This document shows positions 41,911-58,021 of a stretch of 64,000 nucleotides of DNA, one piece after another. A program made the translations under genes and the position numbers. The notes under the pieces were generated by a model. The model was not told where the DNA came from and ran no database searches. It worked only from the letters and a program-made list of their open reading frames with translations. Source of the DNA: the human T2T-CHM13v2.0 reference genome, Homo sapiens; the NCBI RefSeq assembly GCF_009914755.1, contig NC_060926.1, one strand, 5' to 3'. Numbering within the stretch: the first letter of the stretch is position 1; each line of letters begins with the position of its first letter.

Positions 41911-42287
<377 letters not shown>

Positions 42288-43436
42288 AAAAATCACATTT
42301 CTTATAACACGTTTATTTACTTTGGATGTGGGAGACGTTACACCAACAAAGTCAGTCATTTAGAAAGAAAGAGTTTAACTTGAAAATTTTTTTACAACCT
42401 AAATACATTAAATTGATGGCTGCCTTATGATATGTCTGTATTTAAATTGATGACAAAAGTATTTACAGAAAGAAAAGAGGGATAAGGAAAGATATTTGAG
42501 CAACATGGGAGGGTTGCTGATGGACTTTGAAGGACATAAATGACTAATATTTAATCTCAGTCTGTCTGTGTTCCTAGAATATGAAAACCTTCAGTAAGGT
42601 AAGGTATATTAATACTAGGAAAGGCCTTGGATGAGTATTTAATGAAAATTATAGAGAAGGGATAAATTCTGACTATGGTCACCATCGGGGCAGAGGTAAA
42701 TTATCCTCAAGAAAGAAAGATTGAAGCCCCAAAATCCATAGAGGTAGGGAGTAGGAGTCAGAAGTGATCACGAAGCCACATGCACTGGCAGGAGTTTGAA
42801 GCAGTTTTAAGAAGGACGTTGCACTTCCCATAAAATATGAAAGTTGGGTTTGAGCTAATCTGATCTACATCTTTAAGGGCCAAGAGACAGAGAATTGAAT
42901 CTAAGATACACAAATAAATGGCCAAAGCATCAGTCTCCAAACAAACGTATTCAAATAGAAAAACAAAGGAAATAAATACTCTATTTTGAATTTTCTATTA
43001 GTGCCACCAGAGAAAGCATCACAGATGTTTTCCGGCTATCTCCTAAGCTGTTAAAGAATATGATTCTGTGAAACAGACCTGAGAGAATTGCCTTCTCTTT
43101 TGGTACAAAAAAAATCTAAAGTTTCATTTTCTGAAATCTCTCACGAGGTGAAGTCAGTGTAGAATACCAACACAGGTTTTAAATTCTGGAAACCTAAATT
43201 ATTCTCTTTTATGTTGTCAGCAAAGGTGCTTTATTCACACTAAATGAAAAATACAGTCTTCATTTTTCTATATCTGTGAGAGATTTATAATTGAAAATAA
43301 AGATAATTATATCATGATAAATATAATTGGATGATGTCCAATTTAAACATAAACTTCCATATTACTTTCAATAATGTGTTTTATTTTATTTTCTGGTTCT
43401 GGTATATTTCTAAGTTCTTTAAAGCATTTAAGTTGA

Positions 43437-45499
<2,063 letters not shown>

Positions 45500-45865
45500 C
45501 ATTTAAGTTGATAATGTATTTTACTTTTGATGCCTTGTTGTTTTTATTACTGTAGGAGTTAAAAATCATAAGATCCTGAAAAACATAATAATTTCATATG
45601 TTCAATTTTATATTTGTGACTTCATATATTGAATAATTTTTACTCAAAGAAATATAACTTTAAACTACACAGTCAGTATTATACAAAAGCATTGGTCACA
45701 CATCAGCTTGAGTATATAAAAAATTTTGAAGCACATCTCACCTAAAGATATTTATGCTTTAGTTGAGGATATAAAACCCATAAATAAAAATAAACAAAAA
45801 TAATACATCAAAATATGCTAAATTAGGCTATATATGTCATCAATTTGAGGGTATATTGAAAGATT

Positions 45866-47053
45866 TCTTATTGATCCATAATATACCTATTTATGGAATA
45901 CATGTGATATTTTGATACATGCATATAATGTGTAGTAATCAAATCAGAGTAATTGCAGTATCCATTACCTCAAATGCTTATTTTTGTGTGTGTTGGGAAC
46001 ATTCTACATCTCCTCTTTTAGCTATTTTGAAATGTACAACAAATTATTGATAACTGGCCGGGCGCAGTGGCTGACACCTGTAGTCCCACACTTTGAGAGG
46101 CCGAGGTGGGCAGATTACGAGGTCAGGAGATCCAGAACACCCTGACCAACATGGTGAAACCCCGTCTCTACTAAAAATACAAAAAAAAATAGCTAGGTGT
46201 GGTGGCATACGCCTGTAGTCCCACATAATCAGGAGGCTGAGGCAGGAGAATCGCTTGAACCCAGGAGGCGGAGTTTGCAGTGAGCCGAGATTGCACCACT
46301 ACAGAGTGACACTCTGTCTCAAAAAATATATATATATTGATATCTATTGAACTTACAACTAATTTCTCCCCTCTAGCTGTATTTTTGTACCCATTAACCA
46401 ACTTCTCCTTATCTCTTTCTCCCACTCTTTCTCCCAGCTTTCTGGTAACCATCATTCTCCCCTCTACCTTCATGAGATTAACGTTTTTAGCTGCCACATA
46501 TGAGTGAGAACATGTAATATTTGTCTTTCTGTGTGTAGTTTATTTCACTTAAGATAATGTCCTCCAGGCTCATCCATGTTGCTGCAAATGACAGGATGTC
46601 CTTCTTTTTTATGGGTGAATAATATTCCATTGTGTATACATGCCACATTATCTGTTCATCTGTTGATGGACACTTAAGCTGATTCCATATCTTAGCTATA
46701 GTGAATAATGCTGCAGTAAACATGGGAGTACAGTCGTCTCTTCAATATACATATTTCCCTTATTTTGGACATATACCCAGCAGTGAGATTGCAGGATCAC
46801 ATGGTAGTTCTATTTTTAGTTTTTTGTGGAACCTCCATACTGTCTTCCATAATGGCTGTACTAAGTTACATTCCTACCAAAGGTGTATGAGAGTTCCTAT
46901 TTCTCTGCATTCTCATCAGCATTTGTTATTTTTTGCTTTTTTATAATATCCATCCTATTATAATATCACCCAACTGGGATGAGATAATATCTCATTGTAG
47001 TTTTGATTTGCATTTTTTGATGGTTAGTGATGTTGAACATTTTTTCATATACA
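45866..47053 (-). mobile_element. 5'-truncated L1MA (L1MA3/4-like) 3' end
   Basis: acatgtgatattttgatacatgcat...aatcaaatcagagtaatt; ORF2 tail [20 protein letters not shown]; candidate TSD atattga(a/g)agatt at 45853-45865 and 47054-47066. Confidence 0.85.
46056..46326 (+). mobile_element. Alu (AluSc/Sg-like) with a small right-arm deletion, inside the L1MA
   Basis: ggccgggcgcagtggc...ttacgaggtcaggagatc; lacks gcactccagcctggg. Confidence 0.9.
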
Positions 47054-47739
47054 ATATTGAGAGATTGATGTAAAAAATTAATCTTAGAAAATGTATAAAG
47101 ATCTAAGTCAGAAAAACCATTGCCAGAGGTTTGATCTCAACCTCATTAAAGTTGATCCTAATATAATAGAAAATCAGACTATTAAAGAGGTAGTTTCTTT
47201 AGAATTGCCAGAACATTTAATCCTTCACTGAGAGCATTCTGCTTCTTGGACCTATTGTGTAGTGTGATGCACCTCCAGGCTAAAATATTACCTTCAAATC
47301 AGAATTTTATAAGGGGTACCATTCTTCTATTCCTGCTTGCCCTGGGTGCCAGAATGCTGATTCTCAACATCAGGTAGGGTCCACCCAGTTCAGGTGCTTT
47401 TTCTTCAACAATTCTTAACCAGATTAGTTTATGTGGAACTTACCAAAGCAGCAAAAGATTCATGACTGTTTATCCCCTTCCTTTCCTGTTCCTCTCCTCA
47501 TCATATTACATCTTCCACCAATAAAATTGATAATTTACTTGATTATGTGCTCAGTAAAGATATACCACAATTTCTAATTCCAAAGTTTCAGTTTTTGCTC
47601 ATTAAGCAGTGGATCCTGTTTCTATGCTAGCAGTGCTGATCTATCTTCTCAAATATCAGGCCCCAAAAGGTGGCCTTATTTTCATTGATTTCTCATGCTT
47701 ATTTCTTATTATTATTTCTCATGCTTAGCTTTTCTTTAT

Positions 47740-48308
47740 TTTGATGGTTAATATTACGTGTCAGCTTGATTGCATGGAAGGATGCCTAGATAGCTGGTAA
47801 AGTATTGTTTCTGGGTGTGTCTGTGAGGGTGTTTCCAAAGGAGATTAACATTTGAGTCAGGGGATTGGGAGAAGAAGATCCACCCTCAAGTGTGTGGGTA
47901 CCATCCAATCAGTTGCCAGCGAGACTAGAACAAAGCAGAGAAGAAGGTATGACAAGCTGGCTTGCCAAGTCTTCTGGCTTCCATCTTTCTCCTGTCCTGG
48001 ATGCTTCCTGCCCTTGGACATCAGACTCTAGGTTCTTCAACCTTTAGACTCTTGGACTTACACTAGTGGTTTGCCAGAGGCTCTCAGGCCTTCGGCCACA
48101 CACGGAAGTCTGCACTGTCAGCTTCCCTACTTTTGAGGTTTTTGGACTCAGACTGAGCCACTACTGGCTTCCTACCTCCTCAGTTTGCAGACTGCTTATT
48201 GTGGGACTTTGCCTTCTGATCATGTGCACCAATTCTCCTTAATAACTCTCTTTCATATATACATATACTCTATTCATTCTGTCCTTCTGGAGAACTCTGA
48301 AAAATACA
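47740..48308 (+). mobile_element. MLT2A (MLT2A2-like) HERVL 5' LTR
   Basis: tgatggttaatatt...ctgggtgtgtctgtgagggtg...ggacatcagactc...ttctggagaactctgaaaaataca. Confidence 0.9.
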
Positions 48309-48595
48309 GATTTCGGTACCAAAATCTGTATTATGTTGTCTTTTATGATAACATAAAAGAGAATAATTTAGGTTTCCAGAATTAAAAACCTGTGTTGCTA
48401 TTCTACACTGACTTCACCTCTAGAGAAATCTCAAATTTCTCTAGAGAGAAATGGAATTTTAAGGATGGATTTCTTTAGTTGGTTTTGGAGTTTCTGGAGT
48501 TCTCTGTTTAAACTGATTAGACGCCAAAATGGTAAGGACTCTACTTCTAGTAGTATGGAGAATACTGATAGTCCTTGGCATGAACTGTGTAGACA
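48309..48595 (+). mobile_element. Start of HERVL internal region, interrupted by a ~117-bp insert (48321-48437)
   Basis: gatttcggtacc follows the LTR directly; gaattttaaggatgga...aaggactctacttctagtagtatggagaatactgatagtccttggcatgaactg matches the HERVL leader. Confidence 0.8.
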
Positions 48596-48689
48596 TGCTC
48601 AAAGTAAAGGCTTTGAGTGCTGAATCTTTTTCAAACTATTTCAGTTGAAGACTTTATTTTGTGTAATGAGCCCAGAAAACATATCAGTC

Positions 48690-49080
48690 ATAGTATAATA
48701 GTATAATAGTTAAAAGCATTGGCTCTAGAGCTAGAATGAATTAATCCAAATTTCAACTCTCCCACTGTGTAACTGGATTAACCCATTTATGCCTGAGGTT
48801 GCAATTTTTTTTTTAGTTTTTGCAATCAGACCTTGGTGATGACATTGAGCAGTAGGATATAAATAACTCCCACATGCTTAGGGTTCCAATAATGGAACAC
48901 TAGGGATAAATGGGCTAATAGCTATATAACATAGACAGGGCACTTAATCTTCCTGTGCCTCAGTTACTTCTTCTATAAAATGGGGATTATAATAGTACCT
49001 ACCTCATAGGTTTGTGGTGGGGAAGAAATAAATAATTACATCATTGCATGGCACATAGTAAACTTTCAGTAGTTAATGCA
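48690..49080 (+). mobile_element. MIR split by MER85
   Basis: atagttaaaagcattggctctagag; cttaatcttcctgtgcctcagtt...aaaatggggattataatagtacctacctcatagg; tggcacatagtaa. Confidence 0.85.
48782..48914 (-). mobile_element. MER85 (non-autonomous piggyBac/PGBD3 element)
   Basis: 13-bp TIRs cccatttatgcct / agggataaatggg (1 mismatch); TTAA (48778-48781) and CTAA (48915-48918) target; internal gttccaataatggaac. Confidence 0.9.
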
Positions 49081-49189
49081 ACTGTTTTTGTTTTTATGGT
49101 TACGGGATGAAGTTTTCTATTTCTTGAACCCAATTGCTCTGTTTTTTGTTATTATTATTAGTCTTTTATCATTATTTTTTCTGGCTGCT

Positions 49190-50375
49190 GCAATACCTAC
49201 CTGGGTCTTTATTTCTCCCAATGCTATCATAAATGTTTTAGATCCCATTAGCTAAAAGGATCCTTTCCTACCTAGAGTCCAGACTCAAAACAGACCACTT
49301 CATGCCTCTCCATGCCTAAATAAGGGTCCCTTCACCCACTATGGTAGTGTAGTTATTATATCTCTTCATGCCTGATGTCCTGGGAATATAACTAAAACTC
49401 TAGATAGGAAGAAGGATCAGAAACTCCCCAGCCTAATTGTAGAGAAACCCATTGCAGCCTATCTGAGAAATGGGAATTTTGCTTGTGTCTCACACCCCTA
49501 GCATCACTGTCTCCTGAGCCATAAAATAACAGTAAACAAAGTTCTCATTTATGTGAAACTTTAACAGCATGCATCAATCGAGAGATGTTCAAATACCCTG
49601 GGAAAACTATTCAAACAAAAGCATATCCACTCACACAAAAAGCCACAAAGAAATATCCTCTGCTCTTCTTTCTTGCTCTTGCTCTTGCTCTTCAACATCT
49701 TGAAAGAGTTTTATGGACCATGGGAAGTAATACGTCTTTGCAGCTGACCTAGTTGTCTTACCACAATAGTAGAGGTTTCTAGCCTTTGGTTCCAGGTATT
49801 GTTACCAATTTGACTAGTGCTCCCAATTCATCAGTTACTGGTACTGAGGCTCATAGCAATGATGTCTTGGCTTTGCCCAGAAACATGAACACTTCCACCT
49901 TATCTTGAGCCAAATTAAGCCTATTTAACCTGCAACCTTCCATAGTCAATAAGGTTACATAATTGATTAATTTGTCACCAAGGCCCCATACTCAAGTATA
50001 TTTATTTATTTTTGGAAATGGAGATAACCTCAGGGAAGTTCCTAAGGCCATCTACAGTGTTTGTCATATGACCTTTTACCAGCCCTACTCTTATACACAT
50101 TTTTCTCACCAAGAAAAATGGAGAATTTAAGGTTTATAACAACTCCCAGATATTGAACCAAATTACCATTGAAATCAATATGCCCTCCTACATTTTTCTT
50201 AATCTGCTTGATCAACTTGAGTCAGCTGTGATTTGTATCAGCTGAAACTCCAGGACAGGATTAGAGGGTAAGGAAGAAGTTGGGGGGAAGGGTCTTATCT
50301 CCCTATCAATATCAGAAATATTTTTTAAGTATTCATGAAAGACTGTGTTTTCAGATCCTTATGATAATTTTGAGT
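49190..50375 (+). mobile_element. Decayed Ty3/Gypsy (sushi-like) pol fossil: protease-region traces and RT N-terminus
   Basis: 50063-50245 translates as VI*PFTSPTLIHIFLTKKNGEFKVYNNSQILNQITIEINMPSYIFLNLLDQLESAVICIS*, which aligns by eye with the Gypsy RT motif FIRPSTSP...FVKKKDG...LNxITIKNRYPLP...LLDQLxGAxIF. Confidence 0.6.
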
Positions 50376-50376
50376 A

Positions 50377-50715
50377 CAATTGACCCTCGAACATGTTTGA
50401 ACTATGAGGTCCACTTATACATGGATTTTTTCAATAAGTTTACTGAAAATTTTCTTGGAGATTTGTGACAATCTGAAAAAAACTTGCAGATGAACCATGT
50501 AGCCTAGAAATAAGAAAAAATAAAAGGTATGTCATGAGTAAATTCAGTATAAAATGTATTTAGATATTAGTCTCTTTATGTGTTAATTGACTATGATATT
50601 GATAACAGTAAGATATTAGTAGTCAAGTTTCTGTGGAGTCAAAATTTATGTGTGGATTTTCTATTTCCTGGGGGTTTTGTGCTCTTACCCCATGCATATT
50701 TCCAAAGATCAATTG
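50377..50715 (+). mobile_element. Tigger2-family (TcMar) internally deleted DNA transposon
   Basis: ta|caattgaccctcgaac...ggtccacttatacatggattttt...aaagatcaattg|tg; TIR-like ends and TA target. Confidence 0.8.
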
Positions 50716-50960
50716 TGTTTGGTAATAGGTTTGAATAAATGTTAACATATTTATGTAACTCTGAAAAATACACTTTTAAGCATTACAAATGATTGGAAAA
50801 AAGAAGAATTATTTAATAAATAATCTTTCTTTGGTAGATGGGAACCAGTAAATATCAAAGGCCTTAGAAACATGTATAACTCAACACAGGAATTCTATTC
50901 CTAGAAATCTTTTTAATGAGGTAACCAAAAGCTCCACAATTTGGAATTAAGCAAAAAAAT

Positions 50961-51012
50961 ACACACACACATGCGCGCGCGCACACACACACACACACAT
51001 ATTTGTGTGTGT
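50961..51012. repeat. (CA)n/(CG)n alternating purine-pyrimidine tract
   Basis: acacacacacatgcgcgcgcgcacacac... Confidence 0.9.
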
Positions 51013-51344
51013 ACTTATATATGGATCTTATGATAGTTATATAACAAAAATAATATGTAACTGTTTAAAATCATATTTATCTAGAATATCTGACAACAAA
51101 AGAAAGATGCCATAATATATTTAAGTGATAAACCAAAGCAATGAACGTTATGCACCATGTCATATGAGTCTTAAAGATGATAATGACTGCATGGATGATA
51201 ATATTGCTACTCACTTGTTTTATTTTTTACTCTTGAGCACGTAACATTTTCCCCACAGTTACAATGCAATAAATTTAATTCAGAAATAATTATTTTTAGT
51301 AAAGAGGCAAAAAAAAATTCCCTACATTTGAATGTATTAGTCTA

Positions 51345-51500
51345 GTTCATGTTGGCTGCATATTAGAATCACCAGGGGAGCATGAAAAACAAAATATCTG
51401 AGACCTACTCTAACTTGCTGAATCAAAATGTGTTTCATTTTTAGTGTTTGTTGTTGTTCATATTTTTAACATGGTTCTCAAATGATTTTGAAGTGGTCAG
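51345..51500. mobile_element. MER5-like hAT fragment
   Basis: ggctgcatattagaatcaccaggggagc...ctgaatcaaaat. Confidence 0.5.
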
Positions 51501-51914
51501 GCCCACAAAAGTCCACACTGTCATATGGGTACAACTGGCCTTGAGGATAATATTGCTAACTCCTCAGGATCTTTTCAGAATGAAGTGAAATAATGTGAGT
51601 GAGTGATCCTACAGTCATGGGGGAATAATCCATCTATGGGCCTATTTCCCAGGACACTGATATCTGAGAGGTCTTACATCTTTTGGAAAAGACCTCTTGT
51701 AAGTAGTTTGGTAGAAGTGCTATGTCTCTTCAGCACTTCTTCACTGCCTTCTTGTGGTAGCAAATCCCAGCTCCCTGACTAGAGAGGGGACCTGCAACCA
51801 AGACTGAGAAAGCCACAGGCTCCTATCTCCCTAGTGGTCCAAGGAGTGGTCCAGGCTTGGATCAATTGATCATTACTAAGAATTTTTCTTATCATGGCCA
51901 GCAAATTGTCAAGT

Positions 51915-52710
51915 AAGCTTGCTCCATCCCAGTTTTCCCTGACCAGAAAATGGCACTATTATTCCCCCAATATGATCAGAGTAAAATCATCTTTCCTTAT
52001 ACCCTACATTCCACCCATCAGCAAGTCCTGCTGGTTTTCCTTTGCCACAACCCCCAAAACTTCCCACTTCTCCTGGCCTCCAATTTACCACTCTAGTTTC
52101 AGGCTACTGTGACACTTGGTGCCTATTTGGTCTTCCACTTCATTCTTATCTTGCTAAAGCCGTTGTCCAGAGAGCAAAATATACTTGTAAAATATAAACC
52201 AAATTATGTATGTAATTTCTTAGCTTAAAATTCTCCAGTGAATTCACATTACATTTATTATAGAACAATATTTACTCTCTGTGGCCTGACAAGACATACT
52301 TGGTTTACCCCTCTCTAAATTCCTCCATTTCTCCCTCACTCTCTTGTTTCTGACTGTCTTGCTGTTCCTCAGACATGGCAAGCTTTCCCTGATTTTGTCT
52401 TTTATCTACCAGAACTGCTCATCACCCAGACCTACAAGTGATCCCTTCACTTATTTCTTTCAAGTTTTACTCAAGTATCACCGCCTCAGAGGTAACTTCC
52501 TTGACCTCCCTATGATATTAATTCCTCCTTCTCACCTCCCCGACCACCCACTCCCTGCATCCATCAATCTCTTTGCTTTCTTCCTTTTTGGTTCACAGAA
52601 CTTGGCACTACCTGATACACGGGTTACATGTCCATTGTTTGACTCTTGTGAAGTGAAGGCTTCACAAGGGCTTCCACCGTGATTGTGCCCTGTATCTGTA
52701 CCTAGTTGAG
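51915..52710 (+). mobile_element. L2 3' region
   Basis: cccatcagcaagtcctgctgg, gcttaaaattctccagtg, cttgctgttcctcagacatggcaagc, ccttcacttatttctttcaagttttactcaag. Confidence 0.7.
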
Positions 52711-53656
52711 GACCACTATTTATATGCTAAGTTAGACCCCCATTGATTGGATAAAGTCAGGCTCCAGAAGGGCAGACTAAAGCCACCAAGCAAGGAACAA
52801 GAACTGGAAGAGCTTTTGTTTCCAGAATCACCCCAGCTAGCTCTACTCTTTCTATTTTTCATCCCTTCGATAGATGAACCAAAACAGTCTTTCTTTTCTC
52901 TTCAGTTAGTTTGAATACAATTTCTGTCACTTGAGATTGAAAGATCCCTAACTAATAGCCAGTTGAAGATTCAGTTTCAGGACCTGAGGAATTTTAGAGG
53001 GAGAACTGTGAAATGCCACATCTCTGTGCACAGCACACTAGAACATGTAAGTCCACACAGCACAGACTCCTCACCTGCCCGTTAACCTCTGAAGGCACGG
53101 TGGGCCACCATTATTGTCAATATAATCAAAGAACTTTTTCCTCCCCTATTGAGTACTTTGTTCTTTGTGTGTTGTGTATTCCCTTCATCTGCTGCCTGAA
53201 CAACTCAGACTCAGCTGCTTCTTATCCTTCTTGTCCTTTCCCTTACCCTTCCAGATTTGCAAATCATTCCAGAGTTGTGAAGGGAATTCTAATCTTTTAA
53301 AATTGATTTTCCCAGTTTCTCACACACACAGGGGAAGCAAATAATGCATGCACCATATTATGTATTAATACCTTTATTCCTAATCCAATCTTAAAGCAGA
53401 CTGATTATCCACTTATCCCCACCCCTGAATTTTTTTATTCAAATGTTCATACAAAGCTGTCACTTATTCCTGAATGCCTGAATTTTAAGCAAAGCTGATG
53501 ACTTCACAGAACTCCATACACATTGAGCACACTGAAACCACCTGTGCAACAACGCAAGGCAGTGTGAACAGGCAGGGAGCTGTGTCAAGGCCAGGGTCAG
53601 AGACCAGCTGCTAGAATTCTTCCCTGAACCCAAGGGAGCAAGCATAGGTTTTGTGG

Positions 53657-53862
53657 CAATCTTCTCAACTATAGCATTATTGTTGACATTTTGAGTTTAA
53701 TATAATGTACAGGAGCTGTTCTGTGCATTGTGTGATGTTTAGCAGCATTCCTGGCCTCTACCAGCTACCCAGTGTGGCAACCAAATATTCCTCCAGATTT
53801 TGGAAACTGTCCCCTGGAATGTATGTGCTCAGAGAAGGATTGAGCCCAATTAAGAATCACAT
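53657..53862 (-). mobile_element. MER20 (hAT-Charlie)
   Basis: ttgacatttt...gctgttctgtgcattgtgtgatgtttagcagcattcctggcctcta...tgtcccctgg. Confidence 0.8.
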
Positions 53863-54320
53863 GTATTCAAAAAAAGAACTTGTGTGATAACTCAAAAAAT
53901 CAATTCTATCTACTGGGTATACTACTATCTCCTCAAAATAGTCAGTAAGAGGTCCTGGGTAGGTGAAGGTGCTACCTCTGCTTTACAGTTGGACCATAAA
54001 GGTCATGGCCTTTATGAACCAATAAGTATCCATTAGAAGTAAAATTGTAGATGAGTGTGATCTGTTTATAAATTTGAAATTTTAAGGGATCTTATTTTCT
54101 TCATGGCCCCTTCATTTAAGGTGAAACTCTATTTATAGTGCCTTTTGTGATAGAACTCGGGCTCTCTTCTCAAACCTACATTCCCACTATTCCATCGCAT
54201 GTGTCCTATACCCAGCCATATCAATCTTTTTTTATTCTATGGAAACAATTTGCTTTCTTATATCTCCATGTCATTCATACATACTGTTCCCTCTGCCTAA
54301 AATATCCTTCCCAACCTTCC

Positions 54321-54584
54321 TTTTTACTTTTTTTTTTTTTGAGACAGAGTCACCCACGCTGGAATGCAGTGGCACAATCTGGCTCACTGCAACCTCCACC
54401 TCCCAGGTTCAAGTGATCCTTTTGCCTCAGCCTCCCAAGTAGCTGGGATTACAGGCATGTACCACCATGCCCGGCTAATTTTTGTATTTTTAACAGAGAC
54501 AGGATTTCACCATGTTGGCCAGGCTGGTCTCAAACTCCTGACTTCAGGTGATCTGCCTCCCTTGGCCTCCCAATATGCCCAGTC
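54321..54584 (-). mobile_element. Alu (AluSx-like) with two small internal deletions
   Basis: Alu body lacking tcgctctgt near the tail and gtgctgggattacagg near the 5' end. Confidence 0.9.
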
Positions 54585-54782
54585 TTCCATATTTTCTTTG
54601 ATATGTTACTTCTTATGATACTGAAAACTTCCCTTAATTCCTGTTCCTTCCTGGCATTCTCTATTCCAGGCCTGTAGGTTTGTCTCCTCTCTGATTCACC
54701 TATTCCAATGCCTATTCTTATAAATATCAGTTGAGTTTCTTACCCATCTCCAAATGATGTACTTGAGAGCCACATCATTTTA

Positions 54783-55108
54783 TTTAGGCAGATCTAAATT
54801 TTGTGGGTACAGAAGTTTATGCAATCTGGGATGCCCTCTTTATAAAAAAAGAATATAATATTATTAATATAAAATTAGGTATATTTATTTAGAACTGGGA
54901 AAGAAATCACAACAAATGCCTGGAAATTTAAAGACTCAAACTCCCTTGTCAATTTACCAGAAATGCTTACATAGAAATATTTCCTAATAGGAACCTGGCT
55001 TTTTCTACCATCTAGAATGCTCTGCAGCTGTCAGTATCTCACAGCAACCTGTGCAGTTGAGGGTCACCAGAGCCTAAGGTTCATTACATTTATGGCAAAT
55101 CTGCCTTT
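54783..55108 (+). mobile_element. MER96B-like hAT element
   Basis: aggcagatctaaattttgtggg...gccctctttataaaaaaagaata...aagaaatcacaacaaat...ggcaaatctgcct; inverted ends aggcagat/atctgcct. Confidence 0.65.
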
Positions 55109-55207
55109 AAAAAACGTATCTCTGCATCTCCAAGGCCCAGTACAATGGTTATATGGTAGAAGGTACTTCATAAATGTTAGTGATGACAATATTAAATTTT
55201 ATTTAAA

Positions 55208-55737
55208 GGTTAAGAAATTCCATCACTCTTTTGTTCCAGAAAAAGACATTGCCAGAAACCACCTTTCTCAATATGACTTAGACAAGACTCATAGATGACC
55301 CCCTTGTTCACATAAGGCAAGGCCAGACACAGACCCTCCAAATTCCCATTCTTTGCCTCAGAAATGACTAATGGAACTGCTTGTCCCAACTGATCAGCTG
55401 GAACAAAATGACTGTTAACCAACCTTCCTCAAGATCCCTGACCTCTGGCTCACCTCCAGGTGAGCCAGCATTCAGCTCCTCCCAAGAATAGAATAGACTG
55501 GCCTCACGGAAGATATTCTCCAACCTACCAGCCTATCAGGCCACCTTTGATTCCATTTCCCCACACTGCTTCTTTCTTGCTTTGTTTACTCCTCCCTTCA
55601 GAAGCTTGTAGACCTTATGGTCACCTCCTTCTCCCCAGTGCAACATTATCTTTCCCCAGCCTTCTAGGAAGTCTCTTGCCACAGACTTTCAAATAAAGTC
55701 TCTCCTTACTAAGTCTGAACTTGCTTTTTATGTGACA
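55208..55737 (+). mobile_element. ERV1-class solo LTR (MER90/MER110-like)
   Basis: caaggccagacacagaccctccaaattcccattctttgcctc; aataaagtctctccttactaagtc...tgaca 3' end. Confidence 0.6.
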
Positions 55738-56384
55738 GTGAAATTACTGAAGAAAATAAGTGATGAATGACTGAGTGTGAACTCTTGTCAAGCAACAAGT
55801 GTTCTTTGTAACTCTTTCCCGTACTGTTGCAATGATAATGCTATTGCTTTCCTACTGAGCCTATGTGGTCTCTCTTTTGACCTCTGTTCCTTCTGCCAGT
55901 TGCAATACACTCCTCTGTCAACCATTACTATAAGCTTAATCTGTCAATATTGTCAAACAGTTCTGACCTCTACCTTGATTTTGGCTTAAATCCCACCTTT
56001 GTTATAATTCAGTCTAGATCCTAATCCATTCAGACTTTTTCCTGCCTTAGTTCCAAGAAAACATGACTCTGTTTCTAAATCAAAATAGAGTATGTGAGTT
56101 AGCTTTGAAAAGGCCTGATAGATACCCATTGCAAAAAGTTAGTGAAAGGCCATTCTGGTTGCAAACAATTGCATGTAAAGTCTTGGAGGCAGGAATTTGA
56201 AATTCATGCCTCAGGACAATAAAATTAGCCAAGTTTTATTTTAAATTGGTAGAATAATGACAGAAGGTTGGAGAAAGCATTTTATGAATGGATATTGATT
56301 GGGATTGAAAATTATGAGCATTGGTTTTTTATGTGTGAAATTTCAGATATTGGCAAAATACATAAATAGTATCATAATGAATGA

Positions 56385-56759
<375 letters not shown>

Positions 56760-58021
56760 AGTGCTGTGATTCTTAAAATGAAATCTTGGAGCACAGTACA
56801 TTTTTGCAGTACAAATATATTTTCCAAATTTTGGGTAAAGACTAATATTTTCTCACCTTTATAAAATACATTAATTGAATTCTCTGTTGATTTCACAACT
56901 TCATGTTAATTATAGAATGCAGATTGGCATATTTAAAATTTTCAATGTTCTGAACATCTAACTACATAAAGGACAGTTTTAAACTTATTCTTTCATTGGA
57001 GGCAGGTATTATGTTGAAGGAAACTGGGCAGATAATGAAAATTCTGTATTGGCACCCTGCATAGGCACAAGATATTAATATATAAAACTATGATTAAGAT
57101 AACATTAAATTATAAAGTAATTTTTACAATCTTTTTTTATAGATTAACAAATACAAACTTCATCAGACATTAAAATCCATTATTTCAGATAAGGAACAAT
57201 GATTTATAAGAGCCAAGTGGTGGATTTAACACAAACTCACATTTTAATAAAAGTGTTACAAAATTTTAGTTATTAAAAATTCAAAAAGGTTAACATTTTA
57301 GATATAAAAAGAGCAAGGCACAAATCGATTTAATGGGAGATAAAGGGTAAAGCATGCAATGCTTAGACTTTAAAAATCCAATTATTCCAATTGCTCTGCA
57401 TACATTAGGCAGTCATATTTTAGTGCTATCCCATGCCTTACTTGTCTTGCTGCCTTTTGTCAAAGCTCCTGTTTGCATTTTAATTGACTTGGGGAAAAGC
57501 AAGGGAGAAAAGAAAGGGAAGTTGTAAAATTAAAGAAAGGGCTGTGCATGTTTGAAAGCACCTATGTGACCCCCTCTGACTATGTTATGCCGATGCTTTA
57601 AATATCATTCTGCTCCAAAAGTAAGATCCCTATCAGTCTGGCTAGTTTTAAATTGTCACTTCCAAATTTAAATACATTATTTTATGAAAGTTTATCCCAC
57701 CACTCTTAAGAGTACTTAATAAACACAAAAATCATAGTAGAGATACTTGGAAACAGCCACTAGGCTATACACACTTTCCACATGCTAAAAGAATAGGCCA
57801 CAATTTTGTTTATGTTATGTTTCACAACTATTTAATATCTGCAAACTTTCATGTTCTCATCTGAAAATGAGGATGGTGAGAGCAGCTTTATAAGAAGGCT
57901 AGTAGAATGAAGGAAACGGTAATGCCTGGGCATGCCTGATGAAGTGCAATGTAGCTTCCCTGGGAGTGGCTCATGGTGTTTTGTTAGACATTCTGAAGTG
58001 CTTTTGTAGCTGCTTCTGGGG

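What the first reader, a model, noticed from the sequence alone, without database searches (positions are those of the whole stretch)
49960..50375. Fossil Ty3/Gypsy (sushi/Mart-type) reverse transcriptase in apparently unique sequence
Seen: the plus-strand frame 50063-50245 reads VI*PFTSPTLIHIFLTKKNGEFKVYNNSQILNQITIEINMPSYIFLNLLDQLESAVICIS*. It is missing from the ORF track because it is short and bounded by stops. Known: Gypsy/chromovirus RTs begin with FIRPSTSPxxAPxFFVKKKDGxLRxCIDYRxLNxITIKNRYPLPLIxELLDQLxGAxIFTKLDLR. The matches are I(R>*)PxTSP, where TGA is the expected CpG decay of an Arg CGA codon, then KKxG, LNQITI and LLDQLxSAxI. A shifted frame gives NQYALL (~NRYPLP). Downstream QLKLQD-RIR (~KLDLR...RIR) and FMKD/VFSD (~FMNDIFRD) continue the pattern until a Tigger2 cuts it off. 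Upstream INLSPRPHTQVYL resembles IDLLPGxxPxGRIYPL. Inference: this is an ancient Gypsy relic of the lineage that gave rise to PEG10/RTL1-type domesticated genes. Such relics are rare in primates and often go unannotated.
Basis: partly seen in the sequence, partly recalled or inferred. Interest (0 to 1): 0.8.

Follow-up and report, generated by a model that had tools for sequence, protein, structure and literature searches.

The report
Dead Gypsy reverse-transcriptase fragment, SPAG16 intron
A roughly 330-base, long-dead scrap of a Ty3/Gypsy-type jumping-gene reverse transcriptase sits in an intron of human SPAG16 and was later split by a small DNA transposon; the scrap is real, but it is an ordinary kind of genomic fossil.

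Summary
The frame reads exactly as reported. Pfam, PDB and a word-index protein search did not recognise it.

I built a Gypsy RT profile without using the window. It came from 105 of the 149 natural polyproteins that the human RTL1 pol region retrieved.
- The profile ranks ORF 50072-50242 first of 2905 window ORFs (E 9e-4, 15.8 bits). The next best has E 1.0.
- The reversed window and 20 shuffled windows reach at most 7.5 bits.
- A second block, KTVFSDPYDNFEY (50339-50377), lies colinear in the same frame (banded null 0.0013).
- BLASTP of the single-frame read-through against two natural Gypsy polyproteins gives E 1e-6 and 7e-7 over residues 4-105.
- The fragment matches Gypsy RTs much better than human ERV RTs.

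A 339-bp Tigger-type MITE (50377-50715) splits the relic. The reading resumes for about 8 codons after it.

Not above chance: the upstream "INLSPRP..." match and the "QLKLQD-RIR" match. "FMKD/VFSD" was assigned to the wrong motif. No protease, RNase H, integrase or LTRs were detected.

The sushi/Mart lineage claim cannot be resolved. The Dfam/RepeatMasker status could not be checked. Verdict: a real but ordinary, non-functional fossil.

The parts
50063..50233 (+). RT fingers segment of the relic. One frame reads VI*PFTSP...KKNG...LNQITI...LLDQLESAVI, with a TGA stop at 50069-50071. It aligns to positions 70-126 of the Gypsy RT profile.
   Evidence: E 9e-4 / 15.8 bits; one 1-residue gap; ungapped PSSM for positions 82-126 scores 31.6 here against at most 6.7 elsewhere in the window
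50234..50338 (+). Intervening stretch of 35 codons where natural proteins have 21, a net +42 nt that stays in frame. It holds TGA stops at 50243 and 50336 and shows no similarity above chance.
   Evidence: 14-residue gap in BLASTP; null fraction 0.58; stop positions
50339..50376 (+). Second RT block, KTVFSDPYDNFE(Y), in the same frame, aligned to profile positions 148-160. The last codon is cut by the MITE insertion.
   Evidence: 16.9 bits, banded null 0.0013; best of about 128,000 positions in the window; 2 of 60 shuffled windows reach it anywhere
50377..50715 (.). 339-bp non-autonomous DNA transposon (MITE) with Tigger-type terminal inverted repeats. Flanking TA target duplication at 50375-50376 and 50716-50717 (the second copy now reads TG).
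   Evidence: 781 first-look candidates; 40 of 40 scored matches including self, others 70-82% identity; alignment A1 with three other copies shows both ends. The family name (MER2/Tigger2-like) is recalled, not tested.
50719..50745 (+). Short resumption of the RT reading after the MITE: LVIGLNKC followed by a stop. It fits the (x)VMPFGLxN block with deleted positions.
   Evidence: test anchored at the pre-specified position: null fraction 0.0075, 0.029 and 0.026 for three deletion penalties. Modest support only.

Best explanation
This is a non-functional fossil of the reverse-transcriptase gene of a Ty3/Gypsy-type LTR retrotransposon. It lies on the + strand in an intron of SPAG16.

What survives is about 105 codons of the RT N-terminus (fingers and the start of the palm). 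It begins just before the start of Pfam RVT_1 and runs to about one third of that domain, at 50063-50376. About 8 further codons lie at 50719-50742.

Inferred history:
1. An ancient Gypsy element inserted here.
2. Its pol gene decayed, leaving three TGA stops and a net 42-nt in-frame insertion.
3. A Tigger-type MITE then landed at a TA inside the ..FEY codon run, so the relic is older than that MITE.
4. Everything else (gag, protease, the catalytic part of RT, RNase H, integrase, LTRs) was deleted or has decayed beyond detection.

It does nothing as a protein. Shown: the homology, colinearity, strand and frame, and the MITE interruption. Inferred: the order of events and the age.
For: -: the frame reads as reported.
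- a profile of 375 positions was built from 105 of the 149 natural proteins returned by the RTL1 pol region, without using the window.
- 12 of 12 sampled proteins carry RVT_1 plus RT_RNaseH. Most carry Integrase_H2C2 and rve, and several carry RVP_2, Ty3_capsid, Retrotrans_gag, DUF4939 or Chromo. The comparison set is therefore Ty3/Gypsy.
- ORF 50072-50242 ranks first of 2905, E 9e-4; the next best is E 1.0.
- reversed window best E 1.4; 20 shuffled windows best E 0.32-8.7.
- frameshift-tolerant DP gives 31.6, against 21.6 for the rest of the window, 23.3 reversed, and at most 25.1 in 15 shuffles.
- a colinear second block in the same frame, banded null 0.0013.
- the reading resumes at the position predicted after the MITE and its target duplication (null 0.008-0.03).
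- BLASTP of the X-read single frame against P0097 and P0010 gives E 1e-6 and 7e-7. One alignment spans residues 4-105 and lands on the start of their RVT_1 domains.
- Smith-Waterman median 60 against 105 Gypsy RTs, compared with 28.3 +/- 1.3 for 40 shuffled queries. Against 29 human ERV RTs the median is only 37 (shuffled 27.2 +/- 1.9).
- control profiles for protease, RNase H and integrase give only chance hits (best E 0.9-3.5), so the method does not produce hits by itself.
- the Atlas feature search gives a top score of 0.95 to eukaryotic fragments, and 3 of 30 hits fall in clusters with RVT_1 (on 15% of the members of the cluster listed). This is a lead only.
Against: - Curated and single-sequence searches saw nothing: Pfam hmmscan found 0 families for 6 frames, PDB phmmer found no RT, and the word-index search found only two self-identical metagenome entries among 8 candidates.
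- The main hit is only 15.8 bits. A per-window E of 9e-4 would on its own be expected dozens of times by chance across a 3.1-Gb genome. The case rests on the combination with the colinear blocks.
- The P0097 and P0010 E-values are for single comparisons chosen after the fact as top scorers among 105.
- No catalytic YxDD region, protease, RNase H, integrase or LTR was found.
- The upstream and middle stretches are not above chance.
- No other genomic copy was found at the DNA level, nor at the protein level beyond one chance hit at E 7.7.
- The ERV comparison uses decayed copies with X at stops, which lowers their scores somewhat.
Confidence: 0.9

Rival explanations
1. Chance resemblance. AT-rich intronic DNA happens to spell a few RT-like motifs in one frame.
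For: Pfam, PDB and the word-index search were silent. The main hit is only 15.8 bits.
Against: The window-wide E is 9e-4, while controls reach at most 7.5 bits. There is an independent colinear same-frame block (null 0.0013) and a resumption at the predicted base after the MITE (0.008-0.03). Multiplied, with a factor of 3 for the three bands tried, this is roughly 1e-7 per window. BLASTP gives about 1e-6 to natural proteins.
Confidence: 0.02
2. Relic of an endogenous retrovirus (ERV class I, II or III) RT rather than of a Gypsy element.
For: ERV RTs are homologous to Gypsy RTs and are very abundant in this genome. The other matches listed after RTL1 for a Gypsy RT query show 20-30% identity, and I take them to be ERV pol copies. 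The fragment also scores above shuffled controls against ERV RTs (median 37 against 27.2).
Against: The score against 105 Gypsy RTs is far higher (median 60, maximum 83) than against 29 human ERV RTs (median 37, maximum 46). The KTxF..Y..FEY block followed by V..GL.N matches the Gypsy proteins shown. Only ERVs that resemble one Gypsy query were sampled, and no exogenous retroviral, BEL/Pao, Copia or caulimovirus RTs were compared.
Confidence: 0.05
3. Decayed copy (retrocopy or duplicate) of a domesticated Gypsy-derived host gene such as RTL1, not a transposon insertion.
For: RTL1 is the only intact Gypsy-type pol reading frame found in this genome by the searches run.
Against: RTL1 has lost the PxxSP...KKxG...LNxITI stretch that is best preserved here. 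Its RT-like part only starts near ..LFDQL... Neither the DNA search nor the protein search links the locus to chr14.
Confidence: 0.02

Closest known systems
Ty3/Gypsy (Metaviridae-type) LTR retrotransposon pol, RT domain. Examples are the natural polyproteins P0097, P0010 and P0016 from the representative library.
   Same: Same order and spacing of the N-terminal RT blocks. Single-comparison BLASTP E is about 1e-6. The alignment starts just before their Pfam RVT_1 domain.
   Different: Only about 105+8 codons survive, with three stops, a 14-codon insertion and a MITE inside. There is no catalytic core, no other pol domains and no LTRs.
Catalogued human Gypsy relics in Repbase/Dfam: MamGyp-int with MamGypLTR1-3, LTR85/88/104 and X1-4_LR (PMC5753468, passages read; MamGypsy2 seen only as a search term in the listing).
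   Same: Same kind of object: an ancient, decayed Gypsy trace in a mammalian genome.
   Different: Membership in any of these families could not be tested, because no consensus library is on hand. At the DNA level the locus matches only itself. That is expected for very old copies and decides nothing.
RTL1 (PEG11), the domesticated sushi-type Gypsy gene on chr14.
   Same: Shares the ..L(L/F)DQL..A.. block and the general RT ancestry. RTL1 was the bait that retrieved the comparison set.
   Different: RTL1 is an intact 1377-codon frame and lacks the fingers stretch preserved here. The fragment shows no special closeness to RTL1-like elements.
Tigger2-derived MITEs (MER2-like). The name is recalled, not tested.
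   Same: The element at 50377-50715 has the CA(A/G)TTGACCC... inverted ends, a TA duplication, a size of about 340 bp and hundreds of copies.
   Different: This is the interrupting element, not part of the Gypsy relic.

Membership tests
Ty3/Gypsy LTR retrotransposon (RT domain) | Significant, colinear similarity to Gypsy RT sequences in the fingers/palm N-terminus | tested here: met
Ty3/Gypsy LTR retrotransposon (RT domain) | Closer to Gypsy RT than to retroviral (ERV) RT | tested here: met
   median SW 60 (105 Gypsy) against 37 (29 human ERV copies). Other RT groups (BEL/Pao, Copia, caulimovirus) were not compared.
Ty3/Gypsy LTR retrotransposon (RT domain) | Catalytic palm with the Y-x-D-D block | tested here: not met
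   no segment above chance for profile positions 161-375 after the MITE (narrow-band null fraction 0.49). That part is missing or too decayed to see.
Ty3/Gypsy LTR retrotransposon (whole element) | Domain order protease-RT-RNase H-integrase in the flanks | tested here: not met
   Pfam, 3 kb on each side, + strand frames: no relevant family; own PR, RH and INT profiles against 2905 ORFs: best E 0.9-3.5
Ty3/Gypsy LTR retrotransposon (whole element) | Flanking long terminal repeats | tested here: not met
   the only direct repeats of 40 nt or more in 42000-58000 have Alu-type sequence (my reading). LTRs of this age would probably be undetectable.
MamGyp-int / MamGypsy2-I (Repbase/Dfam families) | Nucleotide match to the family consensus or profile | not testable with these tools
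   No Dfam or RepeatMasker here. The genome DNA search found only the self-match.
Sushi/Mart lineage (source of PEG10, RTL1) | Closer to sushi/RTL1-like RTs than to other Gypsy clades | tested here: inconclusive
   Spearman -0.01 (p 0.91) between match score and rank of closeness to RTL1. The best matches include proteins with a DUF4939 gag domain and proteins with a Chromo domain. RTL1 lacks the region.
TcMar-Tigger non-autonomous element (for 50377-50715) | Terminal inverted repeats, TA target duplication, many dispersed copies | tested here: met

The most novel reading that the evidence does not exclude
The fragment could be the last trace of a Gypsy lineage that is not among the catalogued MamGyp families. 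That would be a single-copy, pre-eutherian (possibly amniote-age) insertion. Its unusually indel-poor 171-nt frame could reflect a period of constraint, for example exaptation as a regulatory or once-coding piece in the SPAG16 intron. My evidence does not exclude this. The locus matches nothing else in the genome at the DNA level. It keeps one frame over 315 nt with only one 1-codon gap in the first 57 codons. I could not look at conservation or other species. Selection bias explains the clean frame just as well, because only clean frames get noticed.
Probability: 0.08. Interest if true: 0.4.

Novelty: new member of a known kind. Interest (0 to 1): 0.15.

Why it matters
It matters little biologically. 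Gypsy traces in mammalian genomes are known and catalogued, and this one is short, broken and without detectable function.

Its value is methodological. A tool-less reader correctly spotted a fossil of about 28% identity that Pfam RVT_1, PDB phmmer and a word-index search all missed. A clade-specific profile plus colinearity tests then confirmed it.

If a Dfam run shows it is unannotated, it adds one data point to the sparse record of pre-ERV LTR elements in the primate lineage. The MITE inserted into it also gives a relative date: the relic is older than the MITE.

Tried and rejected
- Pfam hmmscan of six frames of 49901-50382: 0 families at E<=10.
- PDB phmmer with the 61-residue read-through: one unrelated hit at E 1.7, no RT.
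- Word-index protein search, 'longer' lengths: 8 candidates. The 2 hits are human-identical metagenome ORFs read with TGA=W.
- Genome protein search with the fragment: self, plus one hit at E 7.7 on C9 that I take as chance.
- A six-frame Pfam scan of 24 kb failed because the output was too large. I repeated it on 3 kb each side, + strand frames only, and found nothing relevant.
- Searching the human genome with a natural Gypsy RT piece to find sister relics. After RTL1 the list holds only matches of 20-30% identity that I take for ERV pol copies, so no sister Gypsy relics could be picked out.
- HMMER on long X-read frames found only the main block.
- Upstream and middle extension with my frameshift-tolerant DP stayed at chance level.
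- A search for continuation after the MITE beyond about 8 codons found nothing above chance.
- LTR search: only repeats with Alu-type sequence.
- The inverted-repeat finder did not pick up the MITE ends. Alignment to other copies did.
- Earlier findings of this scan were not open to the session.
- I did not build a tree. About 100 decayed residues would not resolve Gypsy clades.

Full report
**Observation.** It is bounded by TGA codons and has a TGA at 50069. The 416-base stretch 49960-50375 matches only itself in the genome DNA search.

**First-line searches were silent.**
- Pfam hmmscan of all six frames of 49901-50382, with X at stops, gave 0 families at E<=10.
- phmmer against PDB chains gave one unrelated hit at E 1.7 and no reverse transcriptase.
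- The word-index protein search scored 8 candidates. It returned only two 100%-identical metagenome 'proteins'. These are this same human frame read with TGA as Trp.
- A protein search of the genome returned the locus itself and one E 7.7 hit on C9, which I regard as chance.
- The ESM Atlas feature search gave a top score of 0.95 to small eukaryotic fragment clusters. Three of 30 hits were in clusters carrying RVT_1 (on 15% of the members of the cluster listed). This is a lead only.

**An independent Gypsy profile.**
- Searching the genome with Pfam RT_RNaseH_2 found an intact 1377-codon frame on C14, which I take to be RTL1.
- Its protease-RT-RNase H part (571 residues) retrieved 52,450 proteins at E<=0.001 from the representative library. 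The best 150 were returned.
- Twelve of twelve that I scanned carry RVT_1 plus RT_RNaseH. Most have Integrase_H2C2 and rve. Several have RVP_2, gag-asp_proteas, Ty3_capsid, Retrotrans_gag, DUF4939, SH3_Tf2-1 or Chromo. They are Ty3/Gypsy polyproteins.
- From 105 of the 149 with near-full coverage of the RT region I built a 375-position profile with MAFFT and hmmbuild. The window played no part in building it.

**Main test.** hmmsearch --max with this profile was run against all 2905 stop-to-stop ORFs of 15 or more residues in the six frames of the 64-kb window.
- ORF 50072-50242 (+) ranks first with E 9e-4 (15.8 bits). Profile positions 75-126 align to ORF residues 4-54 with a single 1-residue gap. 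The second-best ORF has E 1.0.
- The reversed window gives a best E of 1.4. Twenty block-shuffled windows give best E values of 0.32-8.7, at most 7.5 bits.
- My own frameshift-tolerant dynamic programme scores 31.6 at this locus. The rest of the window on both strands reaches 21.6, the reversed sequence 23.3, and 15 shuffles at most 25.1.
- As an ungapped PSSM, positions 82-126 score 31.6 at 50099, against at most 6.7 anywhere else in the window.
- Profiles for protease, RNase H and integrase built the same way find only chance-level hits (best E 0.9-3.5). This shows that the rest of the element is not detectable. It also serves as a negative control for the method.

**Colinear extension.** A per-window E of 1e-3 would not be convincing at genome scale, so I looked for independent colinear signal.
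- In a band of +/-45 nt around the expected diagonal, the stretch between the main block and the transposon holds an ungapped segment. Profile positions 148-160 align to 50339-50377 (KTVFSDPYDNFEY) at 16.9 bits.
- This lies in the same frame as the main block, displaced by +42 nt. Of about 1500 random anchors, a fraction of 0.0013 reach that score.
- As a fixed PSSM it is the best of about 128,000 positions in the window. The next best are 12.9 and 11.8. Two of 60 shuffled windows reach 16.9 anywhere.
- BLASTP of the single-frame read-through 50063-50377 (X at the three stops, nothing joined or shifted) against natural proteins P0097 and P0010 gives E 1e-6 and 7e-7. One alignment covers residues 4-105, with 25-28% identity and a 14-residue insertion in the window.
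- These alignments land at P0097 329-413 and P0010 382-466, just before and into the start of their RVT_1 domains, which begin at 337 and 390.
- The two proteins were picked as top scorers among 105, so their E-values should be multiplied by about 100.

**The interrupting transposon.**
- 50368-50760 has 781 first-look candidates in the genome. All 40 scored match (self plus 39 copies at 70-82% identity).
- Alignment with three copies shows both ends. The element runs from 50377 to 50715, begins CAATTGACCC and ends in its inverse. It is flanked by TA at 50375-76 and TG at 50716-17, which I read as a TA target duplication with one later change.
- The insertion point lies inside the last codon of the ..FEY run. 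At the base predicted by that geometry (50719) the frame reads LVIGLNKC, then a stop. Natural proteins continue (x)VMPFGLTNAP there.
- A test anchored at that single pre-specified position, allowing deleted profile positions, gives null fractions of 0.0075, 0.029 and 0.026 for three penalties. This is modest support, but it lies where it should. The MITE therefore landed in a sequence that already encoded this RT.
- Beyond about 50745 nothing is above chance.

**What is not supported.**
- The upstream 'INLSPRPHTQVYL' match has a null fraction of 0.2-0.29.
- The shifted-frame 'QLKLQD-RIR' match has a null fraction of 0.58.
- The best upstream segment is FLRPSTV (50036-50056) on profile positions 68-74, at p 0.13. 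It fits the same profile positions as the following I*PFTSP and may be an old 24-nt duplication. I did not test this.
- 'FMKD/VFSD ~ FMNDIFRD' is a mis-assignment of the KTVF...FEY block.
- Pfam found nothing relevant in 3 kb of + strand frames on either side.
- The only direct repeats of 40 nt or more in 42000-58000 have Alu-type sequence.

**Gypsy or retrovirus?**
- A natural Gypsy RT piece searched against the genome returns RTL1 first. The other listed matches have 20-30% identity, and I take them to be ERV pol copies.
- Pairwise Smith-Waterman scores of the 105-residue read-through are: median 60 (maximum 83) against the 105 Gypsy RT regions, and median 37 (maximum 46) against 29 of those ERV RT regions. 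Forty shuffled queries give 28.3 +/- 1.3 and 27.2 +/- 1.9 respectively.
- The fragment is therefore RT-like in general and Gypsy-like in particular.
- Caveats: the ERV copies carry X at stops. BEL/Pao, Copia and caulimovirus RTs were not compared. According to the passages I read in PMC5753468, Copia and BEL leave no traces in the human genome.

**Lineage.** The claim of descent from the sushi/Mart lineage cannot be decided.
- Match score shows no relation to closeness to RTL1 (Spearman -0.01, p 0.91).
- The best matches include proteins with the DUF4939 gag domain and proteins with chromodomains.
- RTL1 itself lacks the stretch best preserved here.

**Mechanism and history (inference).**
- A Ty3/Gypsy element inserted in what is now a SPAG16 intron, in the same orientation as the gene.
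- It decayed neutrally, and a Tigger-type MITE later inserted into its RT.
- The MITE copies are 70-82% identical to one another. From general knowledge, this suggests an insertion tens of millions of years old, around the eutherian radiation. The relic is older than that.
- The first stop falls on a column that is conserved in the compared proteins. An origin by CpG decay is plausible but not testable here.
- Seven of the eight stops of this frame between 50018 and 50510 are TGA. That explains why metagenome gene callers using a TGA-recoded table produced P0001 and P0002.

**Comparison with what is known.** Human Gypsy traces are catalogued as MamGyp-int, MamGypLTR1-3, LTR85/88/104 and X1-4_LR. 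They are described as a small fraction of the genome, consistent with the PEG10-type domesticated genes (PMC5753468, passages read; the other papers were seen only in the listing). Whether this copy is already annotated could not be checked. NCBI's soft mask covers only 15% of the window, and its list of the longest masked stretches omits even the multi-copy MITE, so absence from it means little.

**Verdict.** This is a real, correctly spotted, non-functional Gypsy RT fossil, split by a MITE. It is an ordinary member of a known kind. Interest is low.

Noticed in passing
window 50377-50715 (TA at 50375-50376, TG at 50716-50717): A 339-bp Tigger-type MITE with hundreds of copies in the genome at 70-82% identity. 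It is absent from NCBI's list of the longest masked stretches, which reaches down to about 200 bp, so that mask is insensitive to old repeats.
   Followed up: yes
window 50018-50510 (+), proteins P0001 and P0002: Two metagenome 'proteins' of 162 and 160 aa are this human frame read from the ATG at 50018 with TGA as Trp. That is human DNA in metagenome assemblies, called under a recoded table. Seven of the eight stops of the frame in this stretch are TGA.
   Followed up: partly
window 50036-50056 and 50063-50086: FLRPST(V) and (V)I*PFTSP both fit the same profile positions (68-74). This may be an old 24-nt tandem duplication inside the relic. By eye the two DNA stretches share about half their bases.
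   Followed up: no
window 50957-51016: A compound (CA)n-(CG)n-(CA)n-(TG)n microsatellite about 240 bp downstream of the MITE.
   Followed up: no
L003 (G000:C9:136171573-136171719, - strand): A 418-codon open frame gave a 35%-identity, E 7.7 match to the fragment. I treated it as chance and did not identify the gene.
   Followed up: no
L005 (G000:C14:18613875-18614171, +): The second-best RT_RNaseH_2 hit in the genome is an intact 1000-codon frame with an integrase-like tail. It is presumably the domesticated gene NYNRIN (name recalled, not tested).
   Followed up: no
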